A DNA stretch of 64,000 nucleotides from positions 1,537 to 65,536 of IMG/VR virus record IMGVR_UViG_3300022602_000004; one strand, 5' to 3'. This document shows, in pieces, positions 1,499 to 63,310 of this stretch; the first letter of the stretch is position 1; every line of letters begins with the position of its first letter. A program made the position numbers and the translations under genes. This DNA comes from a virus. Lineage: Duplodnaviria; Caudoviricetes. A model generated the notes under the pieces. The model was not told where the DNA came from, ran no database searches, and saw nothing but the letters and a program-made list of their open reading frames with translations.

Positions 1499-2151
1499 AC
1501 TTTACTTGGTCGTTCTCCTCTCTAAAAGAATATGTTAATTGTCCTCGGCAATATCAGGAACTTAAGGTATTAAAGCGGTTTGAAAAGAAACAAACTGAGC
1601 AGATGCTATACGGGACTGTTGTCCATAAGGCATGCGAAGACTATGTTCGTGAGGGTAAACCCTTAGAGAAGAACTACCAAAGATTTAAACCCGTATTGGA
1701 TGAATTAATTGCTATTAAAGGAACTAAATATCCTGAGCATGAAATGGCTTTGAAAGCAGATAAGTCGCCATGCGGGTTCACTGACAAAGATAGATGGGTT
1801 CGGGGTATCGTAGACTTGTTAATTGTAGACGGAGAGCAAGCGTATATTATTGACTACAAGACTGGTTCTAATCGTTATCCTGACCCCAAGCAGTTAAAGT
1901 TGATGGCATTGATGACTTTTGCCCACTTCCCCGAAGTGCAAAGAATTAAAGCTGGATTGTTATTTGTAATGCACGAAAGCTTTATGGATGAGGAATATTC
2001 TAGGCATCAGATTCCAAAGCTATGGAGTTACTTTAGTACAGACCTTGAAAGATTAAACATATCATACGAAAATAATATATGGAATCCAAACCCTACTCCT
2101 TTGTGTGGCTGGTGTCCAGTTAAGAGTTGTGAGTTTCATAAGGAAAGATAA
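1495..2151 (+). CDS. PD-(D/E)XK Cas4/RecB-like exonuclease
   Basis: CPRQ, GTVVH, RGIVDLL...IIDYKTG, QLKLMA and C-terminal CGWCPVKSC Fe-S cysteines. Confidence 0.9.
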   Translation: MNFTWSFSSLKEYVNCPRQYQELKVLKRFEKKQTEQMLYGTVVHKACEDYVREGKPLEKNYQRFKPVLDELIAIKGTKYPEHEMALKADKSPCGFTDKDRWVRGIVDLLIVDGEQAYIIDYKTGSNRYPDPKQLKLMALMTFAHFPEVQRIKAGLLFVMHESFMDEEYSRHQIPKLWSYFSTDLERLNISYENNIWNPNPTPLCGWCPVKSCEFHKER

Positions 2152-2297
2152 TGATTGAACCACTAGTAAAACCTACCCCTCTTGATAATGATGTCGCAGT
2201 TATGAAGATAGTTCAGTTGCTTGGGCAGTTAACCCCAAATGACATTAAGTATGTTCAACAAGTAGTATTGCAAGTTGCCAATGTGGTGGAAGCATAA
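2151..2297 (+). CDS. 48-aa hypothetical protein (not in ORF track)
   Basis: MIEPLVKPTPLDNDVAVMKIVQLLGQL...; TAATG coupling at both ends. Confidence 0.6.
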   Translation: MIEPLVKPTPLDNDVAVMKIVQLLGQLTPNDIKYVQQVVLQVANVVEA

Positions 2298-2497
2298 TGG
2301 ATATCCGAGTACAAATTGTTAAGGAAAACAAAGATGGTTCTGCCGACGCTGAAGTTAAGTTTGATAAAGAAGGACTCGAAGTCCTTGTGCAGTGGGGGCT
2401 TGTTGCTATGCTTACCAAAGCAATTGATGCGTACAAGCCTAGACCCGAGGAAGCTAGCGCGCCTGTTATTAAACGGGCTAGAAAGAAAGTAAAATAA
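2297..2497 (+). CDS. Hypothetical protein
   Basis: Translationally coupled ORF in the operon. Confidence 0.7.
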   Translation: MDIRVQIVKENKDGSADAEVKFDKEGLEVLVQWGLVAMLTKAIDAYKPRPEEASAPVIKRARKKVK

Positions 2498-2498
2498 T

Positions 2499-2843
2499 AT
2501 GCCATATGTTAATAAACCTAGACCATATAAAAAAGAATATCAACAAGAGAAAGCTCGAGGTGAAGAACCTCGCCGTGCAGAACGCCAACGCGCTCGCCGC
2601 GCTATTGATAAAAAGTTTGCAGACAAGAATAAAAACGGTAAAGCAGATATTCGTGAAGGCAAAGATGTTGCGCACGTTAAGGCTTTGGATAAAGGTGGCT
2701 CAAATAGAGCTGGTGTATTTATTGAAACTGCGCATGGTAATCGTTCTTTCAAAAGGGATTCAAAAGGTAACTTGGTTTCTGAGAAATCTAAAGGCGAAAA
2801 AGGCGAAAAGAAATTAAGTAAGGTAGTAAAGCTTAAGAAGTAA
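2499..2843 (+). CDS. Small HNH-family endonuclease-like protein
   Basis: GKDVAHVKALDKGGSN...GNRS resembles a minimal HNH; Arg-rich N-terminal helix. Confidence 0.7.
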   Translation: MPYVNKPRPYKKEYQQEKARGEEPRRAERQRARRAIDKKFADKNKNGKADIREGKDVAHVKALDKGGSNRAGVFIETAHGNRSFKRDSKGNLVSEKSKGEKGEKKLSKVVKLKK

Positions 2844-2848
2844 AAGTT

Positions 2849-3001
2849 GTGTCGTTAGGCATGAGTAGACATTGAAGATTTTTATTGGTTTTTTTCTTCA
2901 TAGGTAAAACAACCATGTCAGTTGGGCGGTGTTTTTGAAGTCTTTGTACTTCTCCTTGGCGCGTCAGGCTCAACCGACTAACCCCCGTAAGGGGTCGACG
3001 T
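2849..3001 (+). ncRNA. Candidate multi-stem structured RNA containing an anti-RBS segment
   Basis: Pairings GTCG/CGAC, TTAG/CTAA, GGCATG/CATGTC, TGAAGA/TCTTCA, GTTGGGC/GCTCAAC, GAAGT/ACTTC and a CCCC-GTAA-GGGG GNRA hairpin in the only long gap of the replication operon. Confidence 0.6.
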
Positions 3002-3023
3002 TATATATAGTTAAAGGATAGTT

Positions 3024-4592
3024 GTGGAAATTGTAGATCAGCAAGCAATTAAATTTAAAATAAAATCTGACAGAGTACCCCTCGTTACTGACTACCTTGA
3101 AAGAAGTGAAGTCTTGGAGAATAACGGGGATGACGCTGAACTATTGGTTTATTGGGGCATTGAAGAAATGCAACATATGGTCAAAGTCTATGGCGATAAA
3201 GTTCCTTCACCGATACAAAAAGATTACGAGTGGCCCGGAATACATACACCTTTCAAACACCAAGAAGTTACAGCAGCGTTTCTATCATTACATCAACGCG
3301 CGTTCTGTTTTAACGAAGCGGGTACAGGTAAAACTTCTTCAGTTGTCTGGGCGGCTGACTACCTAATGCAACAGGGTTTAGTTAAAAGAGTTTTAGTTAT
3401 CTGTCCGCTATCCATTATGTATTCAGCTTGGCAAGCTGATATCTTTAAAACATCCATGCACAGAAGTGTGGCGGTAGCGTATGGCGATGCAGAGAAACGC
3501 AAGAAAATTATTAACGGTGTTTATGAGTTTGTCATCATTAATTATGATGGTGTAGGCATCGTGCAAGAAGATATTAAAAATGCAGGGTTTGACCTGATAG
3601 TAATTGATGAAGCTAACGCTTATAAAACAGTTACGACTAAGCGTTGGAAGACGCTAGCAAAATTAATTACACCCTCAACAAGGCTTTGGATGCTTACTGG
3701 TACACCAGCTTCTCAGTCACCACTAGATGCGTATGGCTTGGCGCGTTTGGTCAGCCCAGGAAATGTTCCTAAGTTCTATACAGCATGGCGAGATAAAGTC
3801 ATGTATCAAGTATCTAGGTTTAAGTATATGCCTAAGCCAACGGCAAGAAATGATGTGCATAGAGCGTTACAACCAGCTATTAGGTTTGAGAAAGCACAAT
3901 GTTTAGATTTACCTGATGTAACATATCAGACCCGTGTAGTCCCACTTACACCACAGGTCAACAAATACTACCAAGCCATTAAGAATCAAATGCTTATTGA
4001 AGCGGCAGGTGAAAAGATTAGTGCAGTTAATGCGGCGTCTAAGTTAACTAAGTTGTTACAGATTTCGGGTGGTGCGGTTTATACCGATACCCATGAAGTC
4101 ATAGAGTTTGATATTAGTCCCCGCCTTAATGCATTAATGGAAGTGATAGATGAGACGCTACACAAGGTTATTATTTTTGTTCCGTATCGTCACACTATAC
4201 AGTTGGTTTCAAACCATTTAAAAGCTAACAATATCTCTAATGAAATTATTAGTGGAGACGTGTCAGCTAGAGAGCGGTCTGAAATTATTAGTAGGTTTCA
4301 AATGTCAGAATTTCCACGAGTTCTAATTATTCAACCACAAGCTGCATCGCATGGTGTGACTCTAACCGCCGCTAATACTGTTGTTTTTTGGTCGCCGGTC
4401 ATGAGTGTGGAAACATATCTGCAGTGCGTAGCTCGTATTGACCGCGTAGGTCAGGTTAACAAAATGACTGTTGTACATTTGCAAGGCTCTGAAATAGAAC
4501 GAAAAATGTATTCCATGTTGCAGAACAAAGTTGATAACCACGAGAAGCTAGTTGACCTGTACAAAGAGGAGTTAGGTATAGAAGATGAGTGA
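3024..4592 (+). CDS. SNF2-family (SF2) helicase
   Basis: NEAGTGKT, IVIDEA, LTGTP, HGVTLTAA, QCVARIDRVGQ motifs. Confidence 0.93.
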   Translation: MEIVDQQAIKFKIKSDRVPLVTDYLERSEVLENNGDDAELLVYWGIEEMQHMVKVYGDKVPSPIQKDYEWPGIHTPFKHQEVTAAFLSLHQRAFCFNEAGTGKTSSVVWAADYLMQQGLVKRVLVICPLSIMYSAWQADIFKTSMHRSVAVAYGDAEKRKKIINGVYEFVIINYDGVGIVQEDIKNAGFDLIVIDEANAYKTVTTKRWKTLAKLITPSTRLWMLTGTPASQSPLDAYGLARLVSPGNVPKFYTAWRDKVMYQVSRFKYMPKPTARNDVHRALQPAIRFEKAQCLDLPDVTYQTRVVPLTPQVNKYYQAIKNQMLIEAAGEKISAVNAASKLTKLLQISGGAVYTDTHEVIEFDISPRLNALMEVIDETLHKVIIFVPYRHTIQLVSNHLKANNISNEIISGDVSARERSEIISRFQMSEFPRVLIIQPQAASHGVTLTAANTVVFWSPVMSVETYLQCVARIDRVGQVNKMTVVHLQGSEIERKMYSMLQNKVDNHEKLVDLYKEELGIEDE

Positions 4593-4995: not shown

Positions 4996-5013
4996 GTCAA
5001 AGGAGTAGTAAAC

Positions 5014-5859: not shown

Positions 5860-5868
5860 GGAAACAGA

Positions 5869-6183
5869 ATGCCACGGACGTATAGCAAAGAATTTATTAA
5901 TGAGTTGGGAACACTGCGACCCTTTGATACCACTGGGGTTCAGCTAGCGAAGGCTTGTATAAGAGCAAACCTGCCGGCAAAGTATGTAGCCGTTGCGCTA
6001 GAAGTTACTCGTATGACGATTCATAGCTGGTTCCGTGGCAAACCTATCCGCGACAAAAACCGCAAATTAGTTGCTACATTTACAGACTTAGTTGAAAAGG
6101 ATTTGGATGACGGAATATTGCCAGCCAAGACAACCGCTAAAGCTAAGGCTTATATTGAGGAAATGATAGGCGAAAAGATTTAA
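5869..6183 (+). CDS. Cro/XRE-like HTH protein
   Basis: AKYVAVALEVTRMTIHSWFRG. Confidence 0.7.
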   Translation: MPRTYSKEFINELGTLRPFDTTGVQLAKACIRANLPAKYVAVALEVTRMTIHSWFRGKPIRDKNRKLVATFTDLVEKDLDDGILPAKTTAKAKAYIEEMIGEKI

Positions 6184-53167: not shown

Positions 53168-53203
53168 CTGACACGGTGTCAGTATTAACTAAAGGAGAAG
53201 GCA

Positions 53204-53413
53204 ATGTATAAACTATTCTATACAACCAACATGAAGCAAGTAGATACAGGAGATGTAGTTCACTTCGCTAACAGGGCTTGGACAGTAGAAGGCATAGATG
53301 AATCAGCCAAGTATCTAGAGACTAGGGTTTGGGTTCGGTCGATGGATGAACAACACCTATGCATCAGCGCATCACCTAATGACTTCGGTGCGCGATTTAT
53401 TCTAACTAAGTAA
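53204..53413 (+). CDS. Early hypothetical protein
   Basis: Own promoter and RBS AAGGAGAAG. Confidence 0.75.
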   Translation: MYKLFYTTNMKQVDTGDVVHFANRAWTVEGIDESAKYLETRVWVRSMDEQHLCISASPNDFGARFILTK

Positions 53414-53439
53414 CACTCGGTCCCTGCGAAAGCAGGGAT

Positions 53440-53461
53440 TGAAACCAGTTACTTGTTGTCG
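53440..53461 (+). repeat. 22-bp direct repeat, copy 1 (TGAAACCAGTTACTTGTTGTCG)
   Basis: Identical to 54276-54297; follows a GAAA hairpin at 53419-53440. Confidence 0.9.
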
Positions 53462-53505
53462 GGCGCGTCTATGCGAGTGCGTTATTTAGTGTGCCATTCT
53501 TGCGT

Positions 53506-53548
53506 GGAAACTTGACTAATGAGCTTGTGTCGCGTAGAACTGTAATCA
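53506..53548 (+). promoter_or_regulatory. Early promoter, class 1, copy 2
   Basis: GGAAAC-TTGACT-N17-TAGAAC-TGTAATCA. Confidence 0.7.
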
Positions 53549-53604
53549 GCCAAGCAATTCCGCTTGGTCTATGTAGTATTTCATTTTATGAAAGGTAATA
53601 CAAA

Positions 53605-54222
53605 ATGGCTAAAAACCAAAACCTAGCAGTAGATTTAATCGCCTCCCTCAAAGACGGAGCTTACAAACAAGCCTCAGCTAATGACCGCATTGTATCGGTT
53701 GCGAAGTATGTAATCGAAAAGGTCAAGGGCTTTCCTGAGGCTTTGCCTGATGAGGCTAAGGCTGAGTTAGTCGAGGGTTATCGTCTACGCTTTAATGAGA
53801 ATAACCCTGCTATTCAGTATGTCATTGTTAATGACCACTACTTGTTAGCTAGCGACTGCCCTGATGTAAAAGAGGGGTTTGTTAATATCGGGGTAGATTA
53901 TGCCTACTCATTCAGCCAACAGCAGTTTGGCAAGCTCAAGAATGAGAACCCCTACTTGTATGACATTATCAAGCCTTTGCGTGATAAGTGTTCTACCTAT
54001 TGCAGTAATCGTATCAACGACCTAAAGCGTCAAGCTCGGGCTTTGCTCAAGACTGATACTAAGGGTAATCGTGGTGCAACTCTTGATTTTGGACAACGCT
54101 TAGTCAAGGTCTTTGATGACCTCGAGGCTAAGTGCAAGGTAGCCAAAGAAAGAGGTGATACAACGGCTGATCTAGTCAAGTATCGCAAAGCAGTCGAGGC
54201 TTTTAACAAGGCTTGGGCTTAA
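53605..54222 (+). CDS. Early hypothetical protein (205 aa)
   Basis: Monocistronic: own promoter, RBS AAGG, terminator. Confidence 0.8.
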   Translation: MAKNQNLAVDLIASLKDGAYKQASANDRIVSVAKYVIEKVKGFPEALPDEAKAELVEGYRLRFNENNPAIQYVIVNDHYLLASDCPDVKEGFVNIGVDYAYSFSQQQFGKLKNENPYLYDIIKPLRDKCSTYCSNRINDLKRQARALLKTDTKGNRGATLDFGQRLVKVFDDLEAKCKVAKERGDTTADLVKYRKAVEAFNKAWA

Positions 54223-54231
54223 GTAGTATCG

Positions 54232-54263
54232 AGGGACAGGGCTTCGGCTCTGTCCCTTTTTTT
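54232..54263 (+). terminator. Intrinsic terminator
   Basis: AGGGACAGGGC-TTCG-GCTCTGTCCCT plus T-run. Confidence 0.85.
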
Positions 54264-54275
54264 GTGCCTTGAAAA

Positions 54276-54297
54276 TGAAACCAGTTACTTGTTGTCG
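54276..54297 (+). repeat. 22-bp direct repeat, copy 2
   Basis: Identical to 53440-53461. Confidence 0.9.
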
Positions 54298-54450
54298 CGT
54301 GCGTGAGTGCGTGTGTTAAATATCTCATAGCCCATGTGCCAGCGCAAGGTCATTGATTAGTGTTCCACGGGATAGTGGAATCTGCCCTGTATCATTTAGA
54401 ATTCTAAGAACTGATGCGACAATATCAGCCAACGCTAAGTTATTACAAAA

Positions 54451-54844
54451 AATTCCAAGTTTAGAATCGGGGGTTCTGAGTTCCGCAGAAAAATTCCAAG
54501 TGGTTTGGAATTTAATTTGTTTTATAAATCATGGACTTACACAGGAAATTCCAAAATTCCAAGTTTTTTAGAAATAGGCTAGGGGGTAAAGAGTTATTTT
54601 AGAAAAGTTGTGTCAGCAAGAAGTCTTTTTTCCCGATGTATTTTAGTAAAGCAGAAAACACTCGCAAGGTATTGTTACCTCAAAAAAACTTGGAATTTTG
54701 GAATTTTTCTTATTCTTCTTCTTTTTTAATTTAATAAATAATATATATAACAAGGACTTATAGCATTTTTTACCCCGAAAATTAAATTCCAAAACCATTT
54801 TTAAACTTGGAATTTTTCTTGGAATTTTTTACAAACTTGGAATT
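54451..54844. repeat. Iteron-like array (11 x AATTCCAA/TTGGAATT) with a 24-bp inverted repeat; putative replication origin
   Basis: Forward copies at 54451, 54492, 54547, 54555, 54785; reverse copies at 54505, 54690, 54698, 54807, 54819, 54837; AT-rich core. Confidence 0.75.
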
Positions 54845-54884
54845 TTTTTGGTCTACCCTCGCCTAAAAAAGTTATCCACTAAGA

Positions 54885-54913
54885 TTGTGTTAAAGGTAAA
54901 GTTATACTATAAT
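54885..54913 (+). promoter_or_regulatory. Early promoter, class 2, copy 1
   Basis: TTGTGT-N17 (contains GTAAAGTT)-TATAAT. Confidence 0.65.
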
Positions 54914-55027
54914 TATAGTGTTGGTTGGCGAGAAAATAAGACGGCAACATAGTCCCCTCACCCACCAGCATTACTTAGCGTTCCACGATGTAGTGGAATT
55001 TGATTGTAGTTTTTATCGGAGATTGGC

Positions 55028-55210
55028 ATGAATACTTATCTGATTCACTTTGATGGTAAGCAGTATGAAGTAGTTGGGAAAGATGTTTATAGCACTAAGG
55101 TGGCTTTCGTTAATAAGTTCAATATCCCAAAGCGTAAGCAGTCGTTAGTATCAATTAACCTTTGTAAGAAGGCAGACCAAGTAGTAGTTCATTCAACCGC
55201 ATCACTATAA
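55028..55210 (+). CDS. Early hypothetical protein
   Basis: RBS GGAG; first gene after the promoter. Confidence 0.65.
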   Translation: MNTYLIHFDGKQYEVVGKDVYSTKVAFVNKFNIPKRKQSLVSINLCKKADQVVVHSTASL

Positions 55211-55220
55211 GGAGTAAAAC

Positions 55221-55421
55221 ATGGGCAAACTTAAAAACCTTATTATCGAGAACGAGGAAGCGTTCAATCGCATCTTCAAAGCCAAGCAACAAATTACCGA
55301 CCCACGAGATAGTGGACTCGAACCTACTGATGAAGACTTAGCTAGATACGAAGCTGAGTTCGCAGACTGGTTGGATATGTATGAGAAGTCTTTTGGTGAC
55401 GAGAAGGGATACCTACCATGA
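55221..55421 (+). CDS. Early hypothetical protein with acidic C-terminus
   Basis: RBS AAGGAG. Confidence 0.7.
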   Translation: MGKLKNLIIENEEAFNRIFKAKQQITDPRDSGLEPTDEDLARYEAEFADWLDMYEKSFGDEKGYLP

Positions 55422-55636
55422 TTGATGAAACTTTTACCCCACAGTGTAAGCTATGCGGTGATGTATATGACTCGAAGCGCTTAGCGTTGGGCTATGCGGT
55501 GTGCTGTGAGTGTGGCGACGAGATAGCACGAAAGCTAAACACCAAGCGCACGATAGTCCCGATGAACAAGTCGAACTATCAATTAGTCACAGACATGACC
55601 ATTCTCAAACAGTTAAACCCCAAGAGGACATCATGA
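55418..55636 (+). CDS. Zn-finger protein
   Basis: CKLCG...RLALGYAVCCECG; PMNKSNY. Confidence 0.75.
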   Translation: MIDETFTPQCKLCGDVYDSKRLALGYAVCCECGDEIARKLNTKRTIVPMNKSNYQLVTDMTILKQLNPKRTS

Positions 55637-55800
55637 ATGAGCTAATGAAAAGGCGCATGGAGTTTTCCAAGCTATACCAAGAGAACCAAGCTAATCAGAA
55701 AGTGTTTGATTGGATGGTTGAAAGCCTAACTAACAATGCGCTGGCAAAAGAAACCACCAAGAAGTTGGGCGCATATAACAGGAGAGAATATCGTGGATGA
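55633..55800 (+). CDS. Early hypothetical protein
   Basis: Start MNELMK at 55633 with GAGG; ATGA overlap. Confidence 0.6.
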   Translation: MNELMKRRMEFSKLYQENQANQKVFDWMVESLTNNALAKETTKKLGAYNRREYRG

Positions 55801-55966
55801 AGCGGAAAAAAATAGCCTTTCATACAATGCTCAGATGGCATGGGATAGATATGCAAAAGAGCATGAGTCCAAGCTAGACGATCTAACCGATGATCAATTC
55901 TTCATGTTGGGCGATGCTTTTGTTGATGGATACATGCAAGCCATAGGAGATATTTATGGGATATAG
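55793..55966 (+). CDS. Early acidic hypothetical protein
   Basis: GTG start after AGGAG. Confidence 0.55.
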   Translation: MDEAEKNSLSYNAQMAWDRYAKEHESKLDDLTDDQFFMLGDAFVDGYMQAIGDIYGI

Positions 55967-56387
55967 GTCTAGTGTTGCATACACAATTAGATTCACACCC
56001 GATAGCGGTGATATGACGCAAGAGAAATTAAAAGGTGCGTTCGCAGTCTTTCTCGAAGAAGCTACGGCTAATGAAGATACTAAGCTATGTTTCACCCAAG
56101 AAGAAGCTAGAGAGTTCATAAAAGTGGACAGGGAAGGATGCGCCATCAATTTCTTTGCTAGTGATGTGAAGTGGTATGAAGACTATACCGATGTGAAGTG
56201 CCATATAGCTTTACTTGAAATGGTAGAAGATTGGTTAGCTGAAGATAACCCTCACTCAAAGTATCTAGGTTATATCTTTGTGCGTATCGGTGAAAGTCCT
56301 GACGACATTATTGAAGAATGTGGTGGTAATTACGACTGGGACTGGCTAAGTGTGTCTCGCTCGATTAACTGTGACTGGTTCAATTAA
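55956..56387 (+). CDS. Conserved phage early protein
   Basis: MGYRS.V, VKWY, FVRIGE..DD; RBS AGGAG. Confidence 0.75.
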   Translation: MGYRSSVAYTIRFTPDSGDMTQEKLKGAFAVFLEEATANEDTKLCFTQEEAREFIKVDREGCAINFFASDVKWYEDYTDVKCHIALLEMVEDWLAEDNPHSKYLGYIFVRIGESPDDIIEECGGNYDWDWLSVSRSINCDWFN

Positions 56388-56405
56388 AAATCTCATGTAT
56401 CACTC

Positions 56406-56434
56406 TTGTGTTATATGTAAAGTTGTAGTATACT
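56406..56434 (+). promoter_or_regulatory. Early promoter, class 2, copy 2
   Basis: TTGTGT-N17 (contains GTAAAGTT)-TATACT. Confidence 0.65.
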
Positions 56435-56459
56435 TATAGAATGAAGAAAGGAGAAGTAT

Positions 56460-56543
56460 ATGCACTGGTTCAAGTTGGTATGTATTTTGATTTGGTTGTA
56501 TTTAGTAATCCACTTAGTAGTGGACTTTAATTTAATTAAGTAA
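56460..56543 (+). CDS. 27-aa hydrophobic peptide MHWFKLVCILIWLYLVIHLVVDFNLIK (not in ORF track)
   Basis: Preceded by AAGGAGAAGT; stop abuts the next RBS. Confidence 0.55.
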   Translation: MHWFKLVCILIWLYLVIHLVVDFNLIK

Positions 56544-56556
56544 AGGAGAAGTTGTT

Positions 56557-57471
56557 ATGAATGAACTAAAAATGCCTGAGCATTTAATCTCATTGGCGAG
56601 TAGTGCGGTGTTAATCAGCGTAGATATTTCTGTGTGGTCAGCAACGAAACAGGACAGAGGTATCAGCGATGAAGTTACTACGGCAAAGAACGCTGATAAA
56701 AGCGCGGGTCGGTATGTTAAGAATCTATTAGCTAATCACCCCTCGCATAAGGCAGTCGTGAACTATCGTCAAACCATCTATAACTGGCTTCAGCGTCGGA
56801 CTTATCGGTGGAATCAAAGCCAGCAGTTATTACCTAGTATTGATATGCCCAAGTTTAAGCAAGAGTATCACGAGCATCAAGTAGCGTTCCACGCATTAGT
56901 GGATTCGTTAATAGATAACTACGATTCAATCGTATCGGATATGGCTTTCAAACAAGGTGATATGTTTAACCGCAGTGACTATCCAACCAAAGAGCAAGTT
57001 GCATCTAAATTTAGTTTAAATCTGTATGTATCAGAAGTCCCGACCAATGACTTTCGTTGTGGTATAGCCCAAGATATTGCAGAGGACTTGTTCAACAACC
57101 TATCTTCACAAACTAAAACAATCATAGACAACATAGCTAGTGACCAAGCGCAACGGCTTGTCGATGTAATGGAGTCCATTACTCATTGTTGTGGTGTTGA
57201 TGAGATTGATTTGGAGAATGGCGAGGTGCGGACTAAGCGTCGCAAGATATACGACACGACGATACAGAAAGCATTAGAAATGTGCGAAAGTTTTAAGCGA
57301 TTTAATCTTAAGAATGATTCAGGATTAGAGCAAGCTCGTGCATCGCTAGAGAAAGTCTTGCGTGGTGTATCAGCAGAGGACATTCGTGATTCAGATGCAG
57401 TCCGTCATCATGTCAAAGAAGGTATTGATGACATTCTTAGTAAGTTCGGTAGTTTCAGTTCCATTGTCTAG
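56557..57471 (+). CDS. DUF3150-like protein
   Basis: LISVDISVWSATKQD N-terminus; upstream of an AAA/vWA pair. Confidence 0.55.
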   Translation: MNELKMPEHLISLASSAVLISVDISVWSATKQDRGISDEVTTAKNADKSAGRYVKNLLANHPSHKAVVNYRQTIYNWLQRRTYRWNQSQQLLPSIDMPKFKQEYHEHQVAFHALVDSLIDNYDSIVSDMAFKQGDMFNRSDYPTKEQVASKFSLNLYVSEVPTNDFRCGIAQDIAEDLFNNLSSQTKTIIDNIASDQAQRLVDVMESITHCCGVDEIDLENGEVRTKRRKIYDTTIQKALEMCESFKRFNLKNDSGLEQARASLEKVLRGVSAEDIRDSDAVRHHVKEGIDDILSKFGSFSSIV

Positions 57472-57554
57472 TGGATTCATAGGTAGTGCATGCACTAATA
57501 GACCAAGAGTGCATTTTTCAGTAGTTTATATTTTTAACCAAAGGAGAAGTAAAC

Positions 57555-58631
57555 ATGGCAACAAAAATCAATATGGTTCAAACAGTATCTATCAAGGAAT
57601 TGCGTAAAACCATTCCGCTAATAGGCTCATCACTCACACCAATCATACAGAGTGAACCTGGTTGTGGTAAGACCTCTCTCTTATCTATGATGCGTGAGGA
57701 TTTGGGAGAAGGTTATGACTATATCTATGTGGACTGTCCCGTAAAAGATATGTCCGACATCGGTATGACTATTCCCAACCATGCAACCAAGACTCTCGAA
57801 TACTATGTGAGTTCCCTATTCAAACTAGATAGTCCGAAACCTAAAGTCATTCTGCTCGACGAGTTCATGAAGTCACCCAAGTTATTGCAAGTAATCTTTA
57901 CTCGCTTGATGTTGGAAAGAATGGTAGGTGATGTTCCACTACCTAGTGGGTCGATAGTTTTCGGCACAAGTAACAATGCGTCAGACGGCGTTGGTGATAC
58001 GATGCTTGCTCATGCTGGTAATCGTGTGTGCATTATGCGTATGGCAAAACCAACACCGAACGAATGGTTGGAGTGGGCATCAGCTAATGGTATTTCTCGT
58101 GTTGTTCGTGCGTTCGTGGCATTGTTCCCTCGCACCCTCGCTTCATATACTGAGGGCAACCAAGAGGACAACCCATATATCTTTAAACCAAGCATGACTA
58201 GTTTATCTTTCTGCTCACCTCGTTCGCTTGCCAAGTGTGATGTCATTGTTAAGAATCGGGACATACTAGGTGAGAACGCTACGGCGGTGGCATTGGCTGG
58301 CACGATCGGTGCTAGTGCGTCTGCGGATATGAGTGCGTTCCTATCGCTAGAGAAAACCCTTCTTGATGTGAAAGACATTATCAAATCACCAGATAGCATT
58401 AAAGTTCCCGAAGAAGTATCAGCACAGTTAATGATTATGTTCCAAGCAGTCGATGTTCTAGAAACGCAAGACGAGTTGACTAAGTTCATGTCATTCGTCA
58501 ATAAGATTCCTAGTTCAGAAGTTCAATCAGTATTCTTTACCATGATGATGCGTAATAGTAAGTCCATCAAACTTGCTCGCAATAATATGCAGATTGCAGA
58601 GTGGGCTAAGAATAATCACGAGTTGTTTTAA
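57555..58631 (+). CDS. MoxR/dynein-related AAA+ ATPase
   Basis: EPGCGKTS, ILLDE, GTSN, NR, SPRS. Confidence 0.85.
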   Translation: MATKINMVQTVSIKELRKTIPLIGSSLTPIIQSEPGCGKTSLLSMMREDLGEGYDYIYVDCPVKDMSDIGMTIPNHATKTLEYYVSSLFKLDSPKPKVILLDEFMKSPKLLQVIFTRLMLERMVGDVPLPSGSIVFGTSNNASDGVGDTMLAHAGNRVCIMRMAKPTPNEWLEWASANGISRVVRAFVALFPRTLASYTEGNQEDNPYIFKPSMTSLSFCSPRSLAKCDVIVKNRDILGENATAVALAGTIGASASADMSAFLSLEKTLLDVKDIIKSPDSIKVPEEVSAQLMIMFQAVDVLETQDELTKFMSFVNKIPSSEVQSVFFTMMMRNSKSIKLARNNMQIAEWAKNNHELF

Positions 58632-58650
58632 TTAACCAAAGGAGAAGTGC

Positions 58651-58857
58651 ATGACACTAGAAATAACTTATAGCGAAATGTTTTTAATTATGTGGGCGGT
58701 GGGTATGACCCTCATGTATTTAATTACTAGGTCTAATGCGGAAGACTTTAGAAAGCACACCCTCGCCAAGCTGATGCAAGTATATAAAGGTGAAGCGAGG
58801 ATTGTCTTTGAAGAAACCGATGAAGGCTACCATATATCAATCGTAAACAAGGAGTAA
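58651..58857 (+). CDS. Small membrane protein
   Basis: N-terminal TM helix; RBS AAGGAGAAGT. Confidence 0.65.
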   Translation: MTLEITYSEMFLIMWAVGMTLMYLITRSNAEDFRKHTLAKLMQVYKGEARIVFEETDEGYHISIVNKE

Positions 58858-58860
58858 TAA

Positions 58861-60153
58861 ATGATTGCAAATAACAGACAGGAAGTCCGCTTGAAGAAAG
58901 CGCATATTGCCCTGATGAAACACCCTGAGACTGCGTTGTATTCGGGAGTGATGCTCATGGGTAAGTCAGAGGTAAGCGACGAGATGTTTACAGCATATAC
59001 AGATGGTGTGAATAAGAGATACTCTAAGCCATTCCTCGAGACAATCAGTAGTGAATCTAAGTTGCGTGGCTTAGTGTTGCATGAGAATCTTCATGTGGCA
59101 TTAAAGCAAATCCCTCGTGGTAAGGATATGTTCAAGGAAGATTCTAAGATTGCAAACATGGCGGCGGATTTTGTAGTCAATGACATTATCGCTAACATCA
59201 AAGGAACAGTAAGCGGTGGAAATGAATCTATCGTGACCTTGCCCGAAGGTGCGTTGTATGACCCTTTCTTTCATAACTGGAATATGCGTGAGATATATAA
59301 CTATATCCGTAAAGAGAATCCTCAACGACAAAAACAATCAGGTGGCTCATCAGATGAATCTAACAGTCCATCAGAGAGTGGAACGCAAGGTAGCGGTGGT
59401 GATAACAAGATCAAAGCTAACGGCAAAGAGTATGACATGGGCGGTAGCGGATTCGATGAGCATGATTGGGAAAGCTATATCGAAGGACTATCAGACGAAG
59501 AACGCAAAGACTTGGGTGACAAGATAGACAGAGCGTTGCGTGAAGGTGGTATGTTGGCTGGTCGCATGGGCGGTAAGATGCCACGAGCAATCGGTGAACT
59601 ACTTGAACCCAAGATTGACTGGCGGGAAGCGTTGCGTGACTTTGTAGCATCGAGCATGAAAGGCAAAGATGAATTTACTTGGCGACGCATGAACAAGCGA
59701 CACATGGCTAATGACATCTATATGCCAAGCATGGAGAATGAAACTATCGGCGAGGTCATCGTAGCTATTGATACATCGGGGTCGATTGGTGGCAAAGAAC
59801 TTACAGAGTTTGCGACAGAACTGGCTTCAATCTGTGACCTAGCGTCGCCTGATGTGGTAAGAATTATATGGTGGGATGCTGATGTGCATGGTGAGCAAGT
59901 ATTCAAACCTGACCAATATCAGAACATCGCATCGCTATTAAAACCATTAGGCGGTGGTGGCACTAGGGTATCGTGCGTAAGCAAATACATCAATGAGAAG
60001 AAACTTAGCGCAGAAGCAGTCATCGTGTTTACCGACGGCTATGTTGAACATGACATTGAATGGAATATCGTTCCACCTACCCTGTGGATGATTACTCAGA
60101 ATCGAAACCTTGATGTGCCTGTCGGTAAAAAGGTTATGTTCGGAGATAACTAA
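58861..60153 (+). CDS. DUF2201-like metallopeptidase-vWA protein
   Basis: TAYTDG, LHENLH (HExxH), IDTSGS MIDAS, GGGT, FTDG. Confidence 0.88.
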   Translation: MIANNRQEVRLKKAHIALMKHPETALYSGVMLMGKSEVSDEMFTAYTDGVNKRYSKPFLETISSESKLRGLVLHENLHVALKQIPRGKDMFKEDSKIANMAADFVVNDIIANIKGTVSGGNESIVTLPEGALYDPFFHNWNMREIYNYIRKENPQRQKQSGGSSDESNSPSESGTQGSGGDNKIKANGKEYDMGGSGFDEHDWESYIEGLSDEERKDLGDKIDRALREGGMLAGRMGGKMPRAIGELLEPKIDWREALRDFVASSMKGKDEFTWRRMNKRHMANDIYMPSMENETIGEVIVAIDTSGSIGGKELTEFATELASICDLASPDVVRIIWWDADVHGEQVFKPDQYQNIASLLKPLGGGGTRVSCVSKYINEKKLSAEAVIVFTDGYVEHDIEWNIVPPTLWMITQNRNLDVPVGKKVMFGDN

Positions 60154-60344
60154 TGGGTGACGGCGGACTAGCTAGAATCAGAAACGACTTAGTAAATGAA
60201 CTAATAAAACATTATGGGAAAGGAGCGTATACATGTGCAGTAGAAAGAATGTCTGCCTATGAGGGCGATGAACTCATGATAGATATGTGGCGAAAAGTAG
60301 TAGAAGAAATTGATGAACATTTTAAACAAGGAGAAGTGAAATGA
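60153..60344 (+). CDS. Early hypothetical protein
   Basis: Coupled ORF, RBS GGAG. Confidence 0.6.
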   Translation: MGDGGLARIRNDLVNELIKHYGKGAYTCAVERMSAYEGDELMIDMWRKVVEEIDEHFKQGEVK

Positions 60345-61354
60345 AAGCATTAGAATGGGATAGACTTACTAACATCAGTAAGACAGTAAAGCCTTATCGT
60401 GGGACTACAAATCGTTTTCCTATCGACAAGAGAACTCACAATACAAAGTGTTTCTATGTTGAAGAACGCAACGGCGAGCAAGTGTATGTGATTACCTACG
60501 GCTTTAGACACAACGAGCATTACCATACGAAAGCAGAGTATGAAGCAAACCCATCTAGGATTCATCACAGACAATGGGAAGAAGACGAAACTAAAAAGTA
60601 TGTAACCTACTCACCTGTGCCTAGAGAGTTGGGCATAGTGCGTTCCGACAATACCTTTGAGTTTACTGCGCCTTACTATGGGCAAGGAGATAATCAGATC
60701 ATGAGTATGTGGAGTCGTGGTTACTTTTCTAGGAGTTCACGACATGGTGGAATGGTATATGGCGAAAGAGGTAGTCTTTTTCATCCGATCTTTAAAGGTA
60801 TGCGATTAAACTGCAACACCATGATGCCAGCAGAAGGTAGCGAATACAAAGTTGTTGGTAAGCGAGTCAGTCGTAAAGATGCTAAAGAGTTTCTTAGCGG
60901 ATACGATGATTTCTACAAGGTCAATGAGGTTATGTTCAAAGCGATGGAATATAAAAACTTTATGGATACTGTCGCCGATGTTGCTGAACAAGTTAATGCA
61001 AAATTTGACTCGTGGTGTTTAGATTCTGATGTAAGGAGAAACCTATACAAGTTCTTTGAAGATAACAAAGATACTGCGCCGTTGGATGCGTGTTGTGCGT
61101 TCGTTCTTGCTGATGATATACAGAGTATGTATCGTCGTGTGCGAGAGCATGTAAAACAACAAGCAAGCTATCGCATGGAAGACTTAGAGTTGCAGAATTT
61201 ATTTGACAATGTCAAGCGCAGACTCAACAAAGAGTTGTATCGTAAAAATCCACAATGTATGAAACTAACAGAGTATACCCCCTATCAGTATTACGCACCT
61301 AGCGAGTGGGGTGTTGAAGTGTATGTTAATGGTAACGAAGTTGAACAATACTAA
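60341..61354 (+). CDS. Early hypothetical protein (337 aa)
   Basis: Long ORF, RBS AAGGAGAAGT. Confidence 0.8.
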   Translation: MKALEWDRLTNISKTVKPYRGTTNRFPIDKRTHNTKCFYVEERNGEQVYVITYGFRHNEHYHTKAEYEANPSRIHHRQWEEDETKKYVTYSPVPRELGIVRSDNTFEFTAPYYGQGDNQIMSMWSRGYFSRSSRHGGMVYGERGSLFHPIFKGMRLNCNTMMPAEGSEYKVVGKRVSRKDAKEFLSGYDDFYKVNEVMFKAMEYKNFMDTVADVAEQVNAKFDSWCLDSDVRRNLYKFFEDNKDTAPLDACCAFVLADDIQSMYRRVREHVKQQASYRMEDLELQNLFDNVKRRLNKELYRKNPQCMKLTEYTPYQYYAPSEWGVEVYVNGNEVEQY

Positions 61355-61364
61355 GGAGAAGTAA

Positions 61365-62303
61365 ATGAGCTATATCGTAGATGGTTTTAAGACCGAAGAA
61401 CTGGCTTCAAAAATAGATGCGTCACCATGTAAGAAACTAATACAAGAACTGAACTTCAAGTATGGACTCAAGGTGATTGACTCTAGACCACTTCAAAACT
61501 GGGGTGCGGATAATGTAGAGTTTTATTTAACCGAATCGACTGGTGCTTTTGTTGCTGGTCGTGTGTGGACATACAAGGAAGATGGAAACATTATCTATAA
61601 CTTTCGCACACCATTCTACCGAAAGGACAGAGGGTCGGACAATGCAGATAGAGAAACAATCCATAGCAAGAAACTTTCTACATTGATGGCTACATTAAAA
61701 CGGCAAGATGTTGTTCCATCATTGGGTGGAATGTTAAAGAGTCGGCATCAAGATTCTTTTGAGAACGCAGTCAACAGTCTAGAATCTCATCATGGTAATA
61801 CTTATAAGCGTGTCGAGTTAGAACCCGATGAACTTCATGCGTTGTTGCGTAAAGCCATCATAGGTGTAAATACTAGTAACCTAGATATAAATAAATGTAA
61901 AGAACTTCTTGACAAATACGATAAGATAGATAGAATCAAAGATGAAAGAGCTAAGGATGTTGAAAGATTTTTTGGCGGTGGCTTTCATGCGGTAGGCGCA
62001 GACAAGCTAGGTCATTTAGTCATCGGCACTCTAAAGCGTATTGACTCTAGTAAGTATGAAATTATCAATCCATTCAAGCGTGTAAAGGATTTATCAGAGC
62101 ATGAGGAATTACAACCAATTATGCTAATGCAAAAAACAATTTTCCAAGATAGATTTACGACAGGCGAGACAGGCAAGCTACATTCAAACTATGTGCCAGT
62201 ATCTAATCAATATATGGCAGACCTTGATATTGCCTACTGTGCGGTGCGTGGTATTGATTACTTTGACCTTGCTTGGATTCTTGTCCCATGCTCGACAAAC
62301 TAA
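61365..62303 (+). CDS. Early hypothetical protein (312 aa)
   Basis: Long ORF, RBS AAGGAGAAGT. Confidence 0.8.
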   Translation: MSYIVDGFKTEELASKIDASPCKKLIQELNFKYGLKVIDSRPLQNWGADNVEFYLTESTGAFVAGRVWTYKEDGNIIYNFRTPFYRKDRGSDNADRETIHSKKLSTLMATLKRQDVVPSLGGMLKSRHQDSFENAVNSLESHHGNTYKRVELEPDELHALLRKAIIGVNTSNLDINKCKELLDKYDKIDRIKDERAKDVERFFGGGFHAVGADKLGHLVIGTLKRIDSSKYEIINPFKRVKDLSEHEELQPIMLMQKTIFQDRFTTGETGKLHSNYVPVSNQYMADLDIAYCAVRGIDYFDLAWILVPCSTN

Positions 62304-62623
62304 GCCCAATCGTGCATCAATATAACTGGGACTTGTATCGTGTGCCTTTGCGTAAGGTAGGAAATAAATACACGATGTATGTGGCTGATGGATTTACTCG
62401 GGAATTTGATGAACATACATTACCCGATGAAGTCAAAACCAAGATGGCTATGATACTGTCAAGGCATGGAATTATAGAACGAGACGAGCAATTAACCCCG
62501 TTAGCGTTGATGGAAACAGTAAGAGATTCAGAGTTGCAAGAGATAGGGTGGCGAGCAAGCGACAGTTATTTTATTGTAGTGTTACCTTATTCGTCGTTAA
62601 TGAAACTAAAAGGAGAAGCGTGA
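62288..62623 (+). CDS. Early hypothetical protein
   Basis: ORF overlapping both neighbours; start uncertain (62273 or 62288). Confidence 0.65.
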   Translation: MLDKLSPIVHQYNWDLYRVPLRKVGNKYTMYVADGFTREFDEHTLPDEVKTKMAMILSRHGIIERDEQLTPLALMETVRDSELQEIGWRASDSYFIVVLPYSSLMKLKGEA

Positions 62624-62910
62624 TGGCACAAACCCCCGAAGGGAAAGTGAAGGATAAGGTTAAGAAGATACTCAAAGAGCAAAACATATACTATGTGATG
62701 CCAGCGACAGGCGGTTATGGTAGTAGCGGTGCGCCTGATTTCCTAGTGTGTCATAAAGGAAAGTTTTTTGGTATAGAGTGTAAAGCTGGAGATAACCAAC
62801 CGACTGCGTTGCAAACTGACAACATGAACTGGCTTGAAGATAACGGCGGAACTGCTATTGTCGTAAATGAGAATACAGTTATGCCTTACATGGAGTTGTA
62901 TTTTAAATAA
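62623..62910 (+). CDS. VRR-NUC domain nuclease (resolvase-like)
   Basis: TPEGKVK, GAPDF, IECKA, PTALQ, GG.AIVVN; start follows AAGGAGAAG. Confidence 0.88.
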   Translation: MAQTPEGKVKDKVKKILKEQNIYYVMPATGGYGSSGAPDFLVCHKGKFFGIECKAGDNQPTALQTDNMNWLEDNGGTAIVVNENTVMPYMELYFK

Positions 62911-62922
62911 AGGAGAAGTGAA

Positions 62923-63129
62923 ATGAGATTATATCCACGCAGGTATCAAGTAGTAGAACCAGTAGTAAAAGAACCTGAGAAACCAAAGCTAACCGATAAA
63001 GGTTCTAAGTTTGTTTGGACTAAAGGCGCTGATGTTATGAAGACTTTTAGACGACATGGATTTGTCCCGCCATCAGAGTATCGCAACGACTACTTGTTCA
63101 AAAAGAATCGAGAACTAACCAATGAATGA
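62923..63129 (+). CDS. Hypothetical protein
   Basis: RBS AAGGAGAAGT; DVMKTFRRHGFVPPSE. Confidence 0.7.
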   Translation: MRLYPRRYQVVEPVVKEPEKPKLTDKGSKFVWTKGADVMKTFRRHGFVPPSEYRNDYLFKKNRELTNE

Positions 63130-63310
63130 GAATGATTTACGAGATTGTTTTGCGATGATGCTAACTGTTGGTTTTGCCATGAAAGGTGAAATAAACCCAA
63201 AAGCAATATGGGAAATAGCAGATATGATCGTTGAAGCAAGAAAACCGCCCGACATGGGCATAACCGCAGTAAAACCTAAAAGGAGAAGTAAAGATGGCAA
63301 AGCAAGCTGA
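63122..63310 (+). CDS. Hypothetical protein
   Basis: LRDCFAM...AWEIAD-type phage motif (IWEIADMIVEAR). Confidence 0.65.
   Translation: MNENDLRDCFAMMLTVGFAMKGEINPKAIWEIADMIVEARKPPDMGITAVKPKRRSKDGKAS

What the first reader, a model, noticed from the sequence alone, without database searches (positions are those of the whole stretch)
2849..3001. Structured phage RNA carrying the exact antisense of the early-gene ribosome-binding motif: candidate early-translation shut-off sRNA
Seen: this intergenic stretch folds into a closed multi-stem RNA. Nucleotides 2948-2957 read ACTTCTCCTT, the perfect complement of AAGGAGAAGT. That motif precedes eight early genes, and ten carry the 9-mer; four sites extend to 11 bp with T2947. 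In my fold UCCUU (2953-2957) lies in an internal loop and ACUUC is masked by GAAGU (2937-2941), a toehold and strand-displacement layout. A chance 10-mer match in ~150 nt is about 1e-4 by rough estimate. Most late genes use other RBS contexts (e.g. TAGGAG). Inference: an RNA made with the replication operon pairs with many early RBSs at once and drives the early-to-late switch. I know of no described system like this.
Basis: partly seen in the sequence, partly recalled or inferred. Interest (0 to 1): 0.88.

Follow-up and report, generated by a model that had tools for sequence, protein, structure and literature searches.

The report
Conserved knotted phage RNA, ribosome-site-like loop
The stretch is a real folded RNA shared by hundreds of uncultured water phages and absent from the RNA catalogue, but its exact match to early-gene ribosome-binding sites occurs in only one close group of phages, so the proposed translation shut-off role is unproven.

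Summary
ACTTCTCCTT lies at 2948-2957. Its complement AAGGAGAAGT occurs 8 times on the + strand, where 0.19 matches are expected, each time 2-4 nt before an ATG.

The stretch at about 2846-2996 is one member of a large phage RNA family. Rfam 15 does not hold it, and no cultured-phage record in the INPHARED set matches. Covariation supports five helices, including an H-type pseudoknot that single-sequence folding misses. On 34 sequences, 95% of cells pair and 21 of 30 pairs show compensatory changes. On 87 distinct rows of a model-based alignment the result is the same.

There is exactly one copy in each of 11 genomes, always on the gene strand. It sits ahead of SNF2 helicase genes, DNA polymerase A genes, small ORFs or tRNA arrays.

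The apical loop is pyrimidine-rich and anti-Shine-Dalgarno-like across the family: CUCC occurs in 49 of 73 loops against 14 expected.

Matches of 9 nt or more between a genome's loop and its ribosome-binding sites occur in 5 of 5 clade genomes. In six other genomes the counts are 0, 2, 0, 0, 0 and 0.

My best reading, at about 0.35, is an RNA that pairs with Shine-Dalgarno sequences and is tuned in this clade to its early genes. Whether it acts in cis or in trans, and its function generally, remain open.

The parts
2499..2843 (+). Upstream gene: small HNH-like protein of 114 aa with an Arg-rich helix. Its stop codon lies 2 nt before the CM match to the element (2846-2996).
   Evidence: ORF. 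PHROG phrog_4590, E 8e-5. The protein and its RMERQRARR helix are kept in relatives with and without the RNA.
2846..2996 (+). Whole RNA element: the covariance-model match to family model R1.
   Evidence: 100.6 bits, E 2.5e-26, full model 1-143, the only hit in the window. No Rfam family matches.
2849..2872 (+). Hairpin S1. The stem is 2849-2853 with 2868-2872. Its loop GUUAGGCAUGAGUA supplies one strand of the pseudoknot.
   Evidence: All 5 pairs show changes on both sides in A1. The same holds in A3, where S1 was not part of the model.
2858..2919 (+). Long-range pseudoknot helix P2: GGCAUG-A-GU (2858-2866) pairs with AC-CAUGUC (2912-2919).
   Evidence: RNAalifold predicts it. 98.5% of cells pair and 7 of 8 pairs show double changes on 87 rows, e.g. 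CG:56 UA:16 and AU:58 GC:16. G-U is the commonest type at one pair (GU:51), which fixes the + strand as the RNA strand.
2873..2900 (+). Variable hairpin (UGAAGA...UCUUCA). Its length and sequence are not conserved, and L017 lacks it.
   Evidence: Fold. Alignment A1.
2921..2974 (+). Helix H3 (2921-2927 with 2968-2974) and helix H4 (2929-2933 with 2958-2962). Together they enclose the pyrimidine-rich region.
   Evidence: H3: 6 of 7 pairs with double changes. H4: 5 of 5.
2937..2952 (+). Clade-specific extension hairpin GAAGU / ACUUC.
   Evidence: Fold. GAAG and CUUC are invariant in the clade, while the inserted outer stems co-vary (CUGGG:CCCAG, CUGAG:CUCAG, GCUAG:CUAGC). L181 keeps CUUCUCC without the GAAG strand.
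2948..2957 (+). ACUUCUCCUU, the anti-SD-like tract that is the exact complement of the AAGGAGAAGU ribosome-binding motif.
   Evidence: CUCC occurs in 49 of 73 family loops against 14 expected.
2975..2980 (+). Conserved single-stranded linker CGACUA. With C2974 it makes up the CCGACU box.
   Evidence: Invariant or nearly invariant columns in A1 and A2.
2981..2995 (+). 3' hairpin ACCCC-CGUAA-GGGGU (GNRA-type loop).
   Evidence: The outer pair co-varies: GC:44 against AU:42. L017 has a compensated inner pair. A U-run follows in 37 of 78 members but not here.
3013..3026 (+). Shine-Dalgarno AAAGGA and GTG start of the downstream SNF2 gene. This is the candidate cis target: 5 Watson-Crick pairs with UCCUU.
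   Evidence: The test for cis co-variation was negative.
3024..4592 (+). SNF2-family helicase gene.
   Evidence: PHROG phrog_62, E 1e-104.
53192..63289 (+). Block of ten ribosome-binding sites reading AAGGAGAAG. Eight continue with U: 56448, 56543, 57541, 58639, 60328, 61353, 62910 and 63280. The other two are at 53192 and 62610.
   Evidence: All lie upstream of the element in the same + strand block of the circular map.

Best explanation
Window 2846-2996 encodes one member of a large phage RNA family that Rfam 15 does not hold. The RNA is read from the + strand and occurs once per genome, inside early or replication transcription units.

Shown:
- A 5' H-type pseudoknot (S1 plus P2).
- An optional variable hairpin.
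- A long stem (H3/H4) that presents a pyrimidine-rich, CUCC-type (anti-Shine-Dalgarno-like) loop.
- A conserved CGACU linker.
- A GNRA-capped G+C hairpin.

Inferred: the scaffold displays the loop so that it can pair with GGAG-type Shine-Dalgarno regions and withhold them from ribosomes. In this phage's clade the loop has been extended to CUUCUCCUU. It is half masked by GAAG(U). It matches the (A)AGGAGAAG sites of about ten genes transcribed before it. The RNA could therefore damp their translation once the polymerase has reached the replication genes.

Not settled: whether pairing is in trans (to those sites) or in cis (to the AAGGA of the SNF2 gene about 60 nt downstream). What the pseudoknot core binds is unknown.
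For: - Structure is real. On 34 sequences, 95.1% of cells pair, 21 of 30 pairs have double changes and 0 of 500 shuffles reach this; slid controls pair 29-43%. On 87 distinct rows, 91.5% pair and 24 of 30 pairs have double changes.
- RNA strand. G-U pairs are frequent on the + strand.
- Copy number. 11 hits in 11 genomes over 528,058 bases.
- Loop. CUCC in 49 of 73 unique loops against 14.1 in composition-kept shuffles (maximum 25). A pyrimidine run of 6 or more in 65 of 73.
- Some members have no ORF downstream to regulate in cis. They lie ahead of six-tRNA arrays (L124-type, L109) or ahead of tRNA-Met (L115-type) and keep CUCC loops.
- Clade association. AAGGAGAAG occurs 28 times in 100,458 nt of same-strand flanks of 10 loci whose loop has CUUCUCC. 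It occurs 49 times in 765,287 nt of 78 other loci.
- Own-loop matches of 9 nt or more to plus-strand start regions: 9/49, 6/57, 9/53, 2/29 and 4/31 in the five clade genomes.
- CUUCUCC is kept even where the masking strand is lost, in L181.
- About half of members end in a hairpin plus U-run, as base-pairing sRNAs do: 37 of 78.
Against: - No co-variation of loop and RBS outside one clade.
- The clade counts as one event. Within it, position 10 does not co-vary.
- Loop against own downstream SD: own -6.98 and foreign -6.44 kcal/mol; median rank 23.5 of 52; naive p 0.013 without correction for relatedness.
- Pyrimidine loops and purine-rich RBS flanks match easily by chance.
- So elaborate and sequence-conserved a pseudoknot core is not needed for base pairing. 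It points to an unknown partner (ligand, protein or polymerase).
- Only 1 of 78 members, plus 3 variant members, has a sigma-70-type promoter directly upstream, so a discrete transcript would need processing.
- In this window no U-run follows the 3' hairpin.
- No RNA data.
- A short anti-SD tract would have to compete with abundant ribosomes.
Confidence: 0.35

Rival explanations
1. A cis-acting element at the level of transcription: processive antitermination or attenuation, in the manner of lambda nut, HK022 put or Bacillus EAR. On this reading the nascent RNA acts on the polymerase that made it, so that long early or replication operons and untranslated tRNA arrays are read through.
For: - The element lies at the head of or inside long same-strand units, ahead of both protein genes and tRNA arrays.
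- It is promoter-proximal in L139, in the variant group L077/L086/L088 and, behind operator-like palindromes, in L124.
- In RNA-less relatives the same gap holds a sigma-70 promoter instead.
- A conserved linear box (CGACU) followed by a GNRA-type hairpin recalls boxA plus boxB (recalled). This module also occurs alone and in second copies, as in L115 and L224.
Against: - No sequence likeness to a boxA core: CUCUUU in 1 of 73 loops.
- No Rfam hit, including to EAR (epsC), if it is among the families scanned.
- The Arg-rich protein is kept with or without the RNA.
- This reading does not explain the CUCC enrichment.
- L109 may use a phage-type polymerase promoter. That rests on a likeness to the SP6 promoter that I recalled, and I did not test it.
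Confidence: 0.2
2. A riboswitch-like or protein-responsive leader that controls the gene just downstream (here SNF2). The pseudoknot core would bind an effector. The CUCC loop or the 3' hairpin would then sequester the Shine-Dalgarno sequence or terminate transcription.
For: - The size, the pseudoknot, the conserved junction bases and the GNRA loop are typical of aptamers.
- The element ends 15-30 nt before a start codon with an SD in most members. 52 of 61 loop/start-region pairs have spacings of 15-50 nt.
- UCCUU can pair with the AAGGA of the SNF2 site.
- A U-run follows the hairpin in 37 of 78.
- Downstream genes are mostly replication genes.
Against: - Members ahead of tRNA arrays have no ORF to control.
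- There is no loop/SD co-variation.
- The 3' module is conserved in sequence across unrelated contexts and occurs alone, which expression platforms do not do.
- No conserved alternative pairing was found.
- Tight spacing is uninformative in compact phage genomes.
Confidence: 0.17
3. A stable RNA with a function unrelated to SD pairing. Candidates are a self-cleaving or processing/stability element, or a decoy or mimic (for example of the 16S rRNA 3' tail) for a host or phage protein.
For: - The sequence-conserved paired core and junctions suggest a specific partner or catalysis.
- It sits next to tRNA genes in several lineages, as other phage RNAs of unknown role do (the passage of PMC5737381 seen notes GOLLD/ROOL near tRNAs and possible phage use).
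- The commonest loop type, AGAUCUCCCUCUCCUUUC, resembles the bacterial 16S 3' end as I recall it.
- The 3' module is also joined to other 5' domains: T-arm-like hairpins in L107 and L136.
Against: - No match to any Rfam ribozyme model.
- The helix order does not fit the HDV-like, hammerhead or pistol layouts as I recall them.
- The likeness to the 16S tail is confined to one subgroup.
- Nothing was tested directly.
Confidence: 0.2
4. The match between loop and RBS in this clade is coincidence. On this reading the extended AGGAGAAG sites exist for another reason, such as a protein like T4 RegA or RegB, or shared descent of the start regions.
For: - Only one clade shows the match.
- Position 10 does not co-vary.
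- I estimate the chance of a 3-4 base extension between a pyrimidine tract and a purine-rich RBS flank at 1 in 8 to 1 in 30.
Against: - CUUCUCC and its masking GAAG are invariant through the clade while neighbouring stems change.
- The motif is 6-fold enriched per GGAG in exactly the loci with that loop: 28/290 against 49/3270.
Confidence: 0.45

Closest known systems
Base-pairing sRNAs whose C/U-rich loops bind Shine-Dalgarno regions of many mRNAs (e.g. Staphylococcus RsaE / RNAIII 'UCCC' loops; recalled, no call)
   Same: An exposed pyrimidine tract complementary to GGAG-type sites, presented in a loop. About half of the members end in a hairpin followed by a U-run.
   Different: This RNA has a large sequence-conserved pseudoknot core. 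It is phage-encoded. It mostly lacks its own promoter. No target or transcript has been shown.
Phage T4 early-translation shut-off by RegB (cuts GGAG in early sites) and RegA (binds start regions); recalled, no call
   Same: The proposed outcome is the same: selective silencing of a block of early genes marked by a shared ribosome-site motif.
   Different: Those are proteins. Here an RNA is proposed, and nothing has been demonstrated.
Pseudoknot riboswitches that hide the SD (preQ1-II, SAM-II/V) and the T4 gene 32 leader pseudoknot; recalled. The gene 32 leader is also mentioned in PMC10690425 (passage seen)
   Same: An H-type pseudoknot upstream of a start site in a phage replication context, with a possible anti-SD:SD pairing.
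   Different: No Rfam match. The element also occurs ahead of tRNA arrays. The downstream genes differ, so autoregulation by one protein is unlikely.
Processive antitermination RNAs: lambda nut (boxA + boxB), HK022 put, Bacillus EAR; recalled
   Same: A single site or a few sites per genome, in the sense strand of long early operons. A linear box is followed by a GNRA-type hairpin.
   Different: No boxA-like core (1 of 73 loops). The fold is different. Nothing was tested.
Orphan structured RNAs of phages and metagenomes (GOLLD, ROOL, the candidates of Weinberg 2010/2017, and the >10,000 candidates of Fremin et al. 2023, PMC10690425)
   Same: Found by comparative analysis of uncultured sequence. 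Function unknown. Some lie near tRNA genes.
   Different: It matches none of the 4227 Rfam 15 models. Whether it is among the unnamed 2023 candidates could not be checked, because the supplements are closed.

Membership tests
Any Rfam 15 family | Covariance-model score at or above the family's gathering threshold | tested here: not met
   0 hits in the whole window at gathering thresholds. At E up to 10 on 2780-3080 there were only 3 chance-level hits, with E 0.78-6.7. Seven relatives' loci gave only tRNAs and RT-15 elsewhere.
Conserved structured RNA (generic) | Base pairs kept through compensatory changes in independent sequences | tested here: met
   21 of 30 pairs and 24 of 30 pairs have changes on both sides. 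0 of 500 shuffles reach the observed values. Slid controls pair 29-48%.
   Met only within one clade (5 genomes). Six other genomes gave 0/92, 2/59, 0/49, 0/40, 0/51 and 0/47. 72 other loci gave a ratio of 1.14.
   A promoter lies directly upstream in 1 of 78 members, plus 3 variant members. A U-run follows the hairpin in 37 of 78 but not in this window. No RNA run holds the stretch.
   Needs reporters or ribosome profiling.
Riboswitch / cis leader | Always in the 5' UTR of a regulated ORF | tested here: not met
   Full elements lie ahead of tRNA arrays with no ORF in the L124-type, L109 and L115-type loci.
Riboswitch / cis leader | A conserved alternative pairing between aptamer and expression platform, or loop/SD co-variation | tested here: inconclusive
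   Own -6.98 against foreign -6.44 kcal/mol; median rank 23.5 of 52. Inspection found no conserved alternative helix.
lambda-type nut site | A boxA core (GCUCUUUA-like, recalled) next to a boxB hairpin | tested here: not met
   CUCUUU in 1 of 73 loops and GCUCUUU in 0 of 73. The hairpin with a GNRA-type loop is present.
Intrinsic terminator (3' hairpin) | A G+C stem followed at once by a U-run | tested here: inconclusive
   4 or more U in the next 8 nt in 37 of 78 members. In this window the tail is CGACGUUAUA, and the terminator scan of 2000-4000 reports no site in the gap.

The most novel reading that the evidence does not exclude
Phages carry a dedicated RNA that displays a 16S-like anti-Shine-Dalgarno tract on a rigid pseudoknotted scaffold and so reprogrammes translation. 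In general it would compete for GGAG sites. In this clade it would be retuned, with a toehold-like masked extension, to the 9-10-nt sites of the phage's own early genes. Because it is transcribed minutes after them, it would act as a built-in RNA timer for the switch from early genes to replication genes.
Probability: 0.13. Interest if true: 0.9.

Novelty: new variant of a known kind. Interest (0 to 1): 0.66.

Why it matters
The RNA is widespread and strongly conserved. The SNF2 protein has more than 586 relatives, and most of the best 80 carry the element. Rfam 15 does not hold it.

The pseudoknotted core and the anti-SD-like loop make it a well-defined target for probing, reporter work and structure determination. 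If the loop does act on ribosome-binding sites, this would be an RNA route to temporal control of translation in phages, a job known so far from proteins. If it does not, it is still a new orphan phage RNA class that sits with replication genes and tRNA arrays.

Tried and rejected
- **Minus-strand gene.** On the - strand, AAGGAGAAGT is followed by ACAAAGACTTC, with no start codon at RBS spacing. I rejected this reading.
- **DNA-level site (promoter or multi-copy phage-polymerase promoter).** There is one copy per genome. There are compensatory changes and + strand G-U pairs. The sigma-70 scan finds nothing in the gap. I rejected this reading.
- **Folding energy as evidence.** The z-scores are -0.38 and +0.50 on the + strand. 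They are uninformative.
- **Cultured relatives.** Megablast of 2000-6000 gave no match. blastn of the element gave 49 records, none covering 80% or more, with best E = 2. No named phage carries it.
- **Bacterial genomes.** There are 7 exact 3' modules in one genome per species. The model finds full elements only on small MAG contigs, L240-L243. Matches on three large contigs are weak, at 25-32 bits. I did not follow the host up.
- **Expression.** No RNA holder is listed for 2300-3600.
- **Partnership with the upstream Arg-rich HNH-like protein.** The protein and its helix are kept in RNA-less relatives, so there is no support.
- **boxA reading of the loop.** Rejected.
- **Ribozyme layouts (HDV-like, hammerhead, pistol, twister).** I compared them from recall only. 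The helix order does not fit and Rfam models give no hit.
- **Literature.** Searches. I saw passages of PMC10690425 and PMC5737381. Neither mentions an RNA beside SNF2 or HNH genes in the text I saw. Their supplements are closed and may list it.
- **Earlier notes of this scan.** These gave only the Arg-rich-helix lead.
- **Limits of my counts.** Start regions came from a crude ORF caller of my own that requires an SD-like word. The model R1 was given only 15 of the 30 RNA-less SNF2 loci. It matched four of them: L085 (46.8 bits) and the variant group L077/L086/L088 (25-29 bits). It found nothing at E up to 1 in the other 11. The A3 alignment is fitted to the model, except for helix S1.

Full report
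**Setting.** The window is bases 1537-65536 of a 65,536-bp uncultured virus record. The record has a 122-bp terminal repeat, so the assembly is circular. G+C is 41%. Plus-strand genes run from about 53.2 kb, across the record's ends, to 9.15 kb of the window. Minus-strand (structural) genes fill most of the rest.

The finding lies in a 180-nt gap inside the replication module. The gene order is: DNA polymerase; exonuclease; a small HNH-like protein (2499-2843); the gap; an SNF2-family helicase (3024-4592, GTG start); then a primase/helicase.

**The observation.** ACTTCTCCTT is at 2948-2957. Its complement AAGGAGAAGT occurs 8 times on the + strand and once on the - strand, which is the element itself. 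Shuffles give 0.19 matches on average and never more than 2. The 9-mer occurs at 10 + strand sites and the 11-mer at 4.

Every site stands 2-4 nt before an ATG. One of the eight 10-mer sites (56448) precedes only a mini-ORF of under 30 aa. All sites lie at 53.2-63.3 kb, which is upstream of the element in the same transcription block. Minus-strand genes prefer other contexts.

But it is no more stable than shuffled sequence, with z = -0.38.

**A conserved RNA family.** The SNF2 protein has at least 586 relatives in viral contigs. I examined the best 80 loci. In 50 of the 80, the gap before the SNF2 gene holds the same element. Three more hold a variant with a different hairpin sequence. In L085 the model found a diverged copy. 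I gave the model 15 of the 30 loci that lacked one or both sequence anchors; the 11 of those apart from L085 and the three variants gave no hit. Relatives without the RNA have a sigma-70-type promoter in that gap instead.

Alignment of 34 distinct copies shows five helices:
- S1, a hairpin whose 14-nt loop contains GGCAUGAGU.
- P2, pairing of that loop with ACCAUGUC about 50 nt downstream. Together with S1 this forms an H-type pseudoknot.
- H3 and H4, which close a pyrimidine-rich region.
- H5, ACCCC-CGUAA-GGGGU.

A variable hairpin lies between S1 and P2, and the invariant linker CGACU lies between H3 and H5.

95.1% of cells pair, and 21 of 30 pairs show changes on both sides. None of 500 shuffles reaches this, and slid controls pair 29-43%.

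A covariance model built without S1 found 101 matches in 100 further loci. Those loci had been collected with the 3' module as a pattern. On the 87 distinct rows, 91.5% of cells pair and 24 of 30 pairs have double changes. This includes all 5 pairs of S1, which the model did not impose. One P2 pair is mostly G-U (51 rows), so the RNA is the + strand.

There is exactly one copy in each of 11 genomes or long contigs. Rfam 15 holds nothing like it. No cultured-phage record matches. The 20 listed sequencing runs that hold the stretch are freshwater or lake-water DNA metagenomes, and none is on record as RNA.

**Contexts.** Among 81 module instances in 80 loci, 45 are followed by an SNF2 gene. Others are followed by DNA polymerase A genes (L131, L133), by small ORFs, or by nothing recognisable. 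In G+C-rich phages the helices are kept with quite different sequences.

Two lineages place the full element ahead of tRNA genes with no ORF between:
- the L124-type and L109 loci, ahead of six tRNAs;
- the L115-type loci, ahead of tRNA-Met.

The 3' module alone (CCGACU plus hairpin) also occurs elsewhere. It is found after stop codons, ahead of a P22-type coat gene, inside a tRNA array, and behind a different 5' domain with T-arm-like hairpins.

Only 1 of 78 distinct members, plus the 3 variant members, has a sigma-70-type promoter directly upstream. 37 of 78 have 4 or more U in the 8 nt after the hairpin. This window does not.

**The loop.** The region enclosed by H3 is pyrimidine-rich in nearly all members. 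A run of 6 or more pyrimidines occurs in 65 of 73. CUCC occurs in 49 of 73, against 14.1 expected from composition-kept shuffles with a maximum of 25.

Typical forms are AGAUCUCCCUCUCCUUUC, UUUCUCCCUUUCC, GCUUUAUUGCUUUUCC and, in this window's clade, (A)CUUCUCCUU. An anti-Shine-Dalgarno-like loop is therefore a family trait and not a peculiarity of this phage. A boxA-like core (CUCUUU) is not present: 1 of 73.

I fetched ten further genomes or long contigs with the element.

The five from the window's clade have loops with CUUCUCCUU. They share the extended RBS (A)AGGAGAAG on 4 to 12 plus-strand genes upstream of the element; G006, a 40%-complete fragment, has 2. Their plus-strand start regions with a perfect match of 9 nt or more to their own loop number 9/49, 6/57, 9/53, 2/29 and 4/31.

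In the six other genomes the counts are 0/92, 2/59, 0/49, 0/40, 0/51 and 0/47. No dominant extension follows GGAG in the three of them that I examined for it (G003-G005).

Over 82 loci, 8-mers complementary to a locus's own loop are 1.94-fold enriched in the 10 clade loci (8 of 10 above the foreign mean). They are 1.14-fold enriched in the other 72 (40 of 72). AAGGAGAAG makes up 28 of 290 same-strand GGAG sites in clade loci, against 49 of 3270 elsewhere.

Inside the clade the tenth position does not follow the loop. CUUCUCC and the masking GAAG are invariant, while the stems inserted between them co-vary. One member (L181) keeps CUUCUCC without the mask.

In short, the complementarity is a real trait of the clade, but it counts as one evolutionary event. 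The family as a whole fails the co-variation test.

A parallel test for cis pairing compared each loop with the start region of its own downstream gene. It gave -6.98 kcal/mol for own pairs and -6.44 for foreign pairs, with a median rank of 23.5 of 52. That is no real signal.

**Reading.** The following are solid:
- a new, widespread, pseudoknotted phage RNA;
- read from the + strand;
- single-copy;
- with an anti-SD-like loop.

The following are inferred. The loop works by pairing with GGAG-type sites. I put SD pairing of any kind at about 0.35 and the specific early shut-off timer at about 0.13.

The elaborate conserved core, the free-standing 3' module and the tRNA-array contexts leave three alternatives open. 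The first is a cis element at the level of transcription, at about 0.2. The second is a riboswitch-like leader, at about 0.17. The third is some other role, such as processing, a ribozyme or a decoy, at about 0.2. That the clade's exact match is coincidental is compatible with any of these (about 0.45).

**Comparison with the known.** The comparisons with C/U-rich-loop sRNAs, T4 RegB and RegA, SD-hiding pseudoknot riboswitches, and nut, put and EAR rest on my recall and not on a call.

**Literature seen.**
- Search listings.
- Passages of PMC10690425. It reports more than ten thousand unnamed phage RNA candidates and notes that the gene 32 pseudoknot has no Rfam model.
- Passages of PMC5737381.

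Their supplements, which I could not open, may already list this motif without a name.

Noticed in passing
L134:5254-5274, L215:10515-10535, L115:3352-3372, L224:849-869, L106:9991-10011: The 3' module (CCGAYU, 2 nt, CCCC-CGUAA-GGGG) occurs on its own, without the pseudoknot domain. It is seen after stop codons, ahead of a P22-type coat gene, 175 nt ahead of a tRNA-Gly, inside a four-tRNA array, and as a second copy about 300 nt after a full element and ahead of tRNA-Met.
   Followed up: partly
L124:8300-8470: Four copies of the palindrome GGATACCGGTATCC (some imperfect) lie in the non-coding stretch just upstream of the element and a six-tRNA array. They look like repressor operators of an early promoter region.
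   Followed up: no
L107:1900-2036 and L107:7324-7515: Two T-arm-like hairpins (GGTTCGATTCC type) precede the 3' module in L107 and L136. The same locus holds a strong match to Rfam RT-15 RNA (180.5 bits).
   Followed up: no
L049, L051, L053, L069, L070 (about 45 nt before the SNF2 start): SNF2 relatives without the RNA have TTGACA, a 17-nt spacer and TATACT or TATGAT ending 3 nt before the ATG. This implies a leaderless SNF2 mRNA.
   Followed up: no
window 2499-2843: The small HNH-like protein has an Arg-rich N-terminal helix (RRAERQRARRA here, RMERQRARR in relatives). The helix is conserved whether or not the RNA follows.
   Followed up: partly
window 9336-15875 (-): A 2179-aa ORF beside the structural genes has no PHROG family match at E 0.001.
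   Followed up: no
window about 45160-45200 (+ strand reading, inside a minus-strand gene): A hairpin GUCCGUAAGGAC with conserved flanks (UUAACUGGCUUUAG...ACUGUAGGAU) recurs at the matching place in G001 and G002.
   Followed up: no
window 56448-56556: One of the eight AAGGAGAAGT sites precedes only a mini-ORF of under 30 aa, and a second site follows 95 nt later. This may be a small leader peptide or a decoy site.
   Followed up: no
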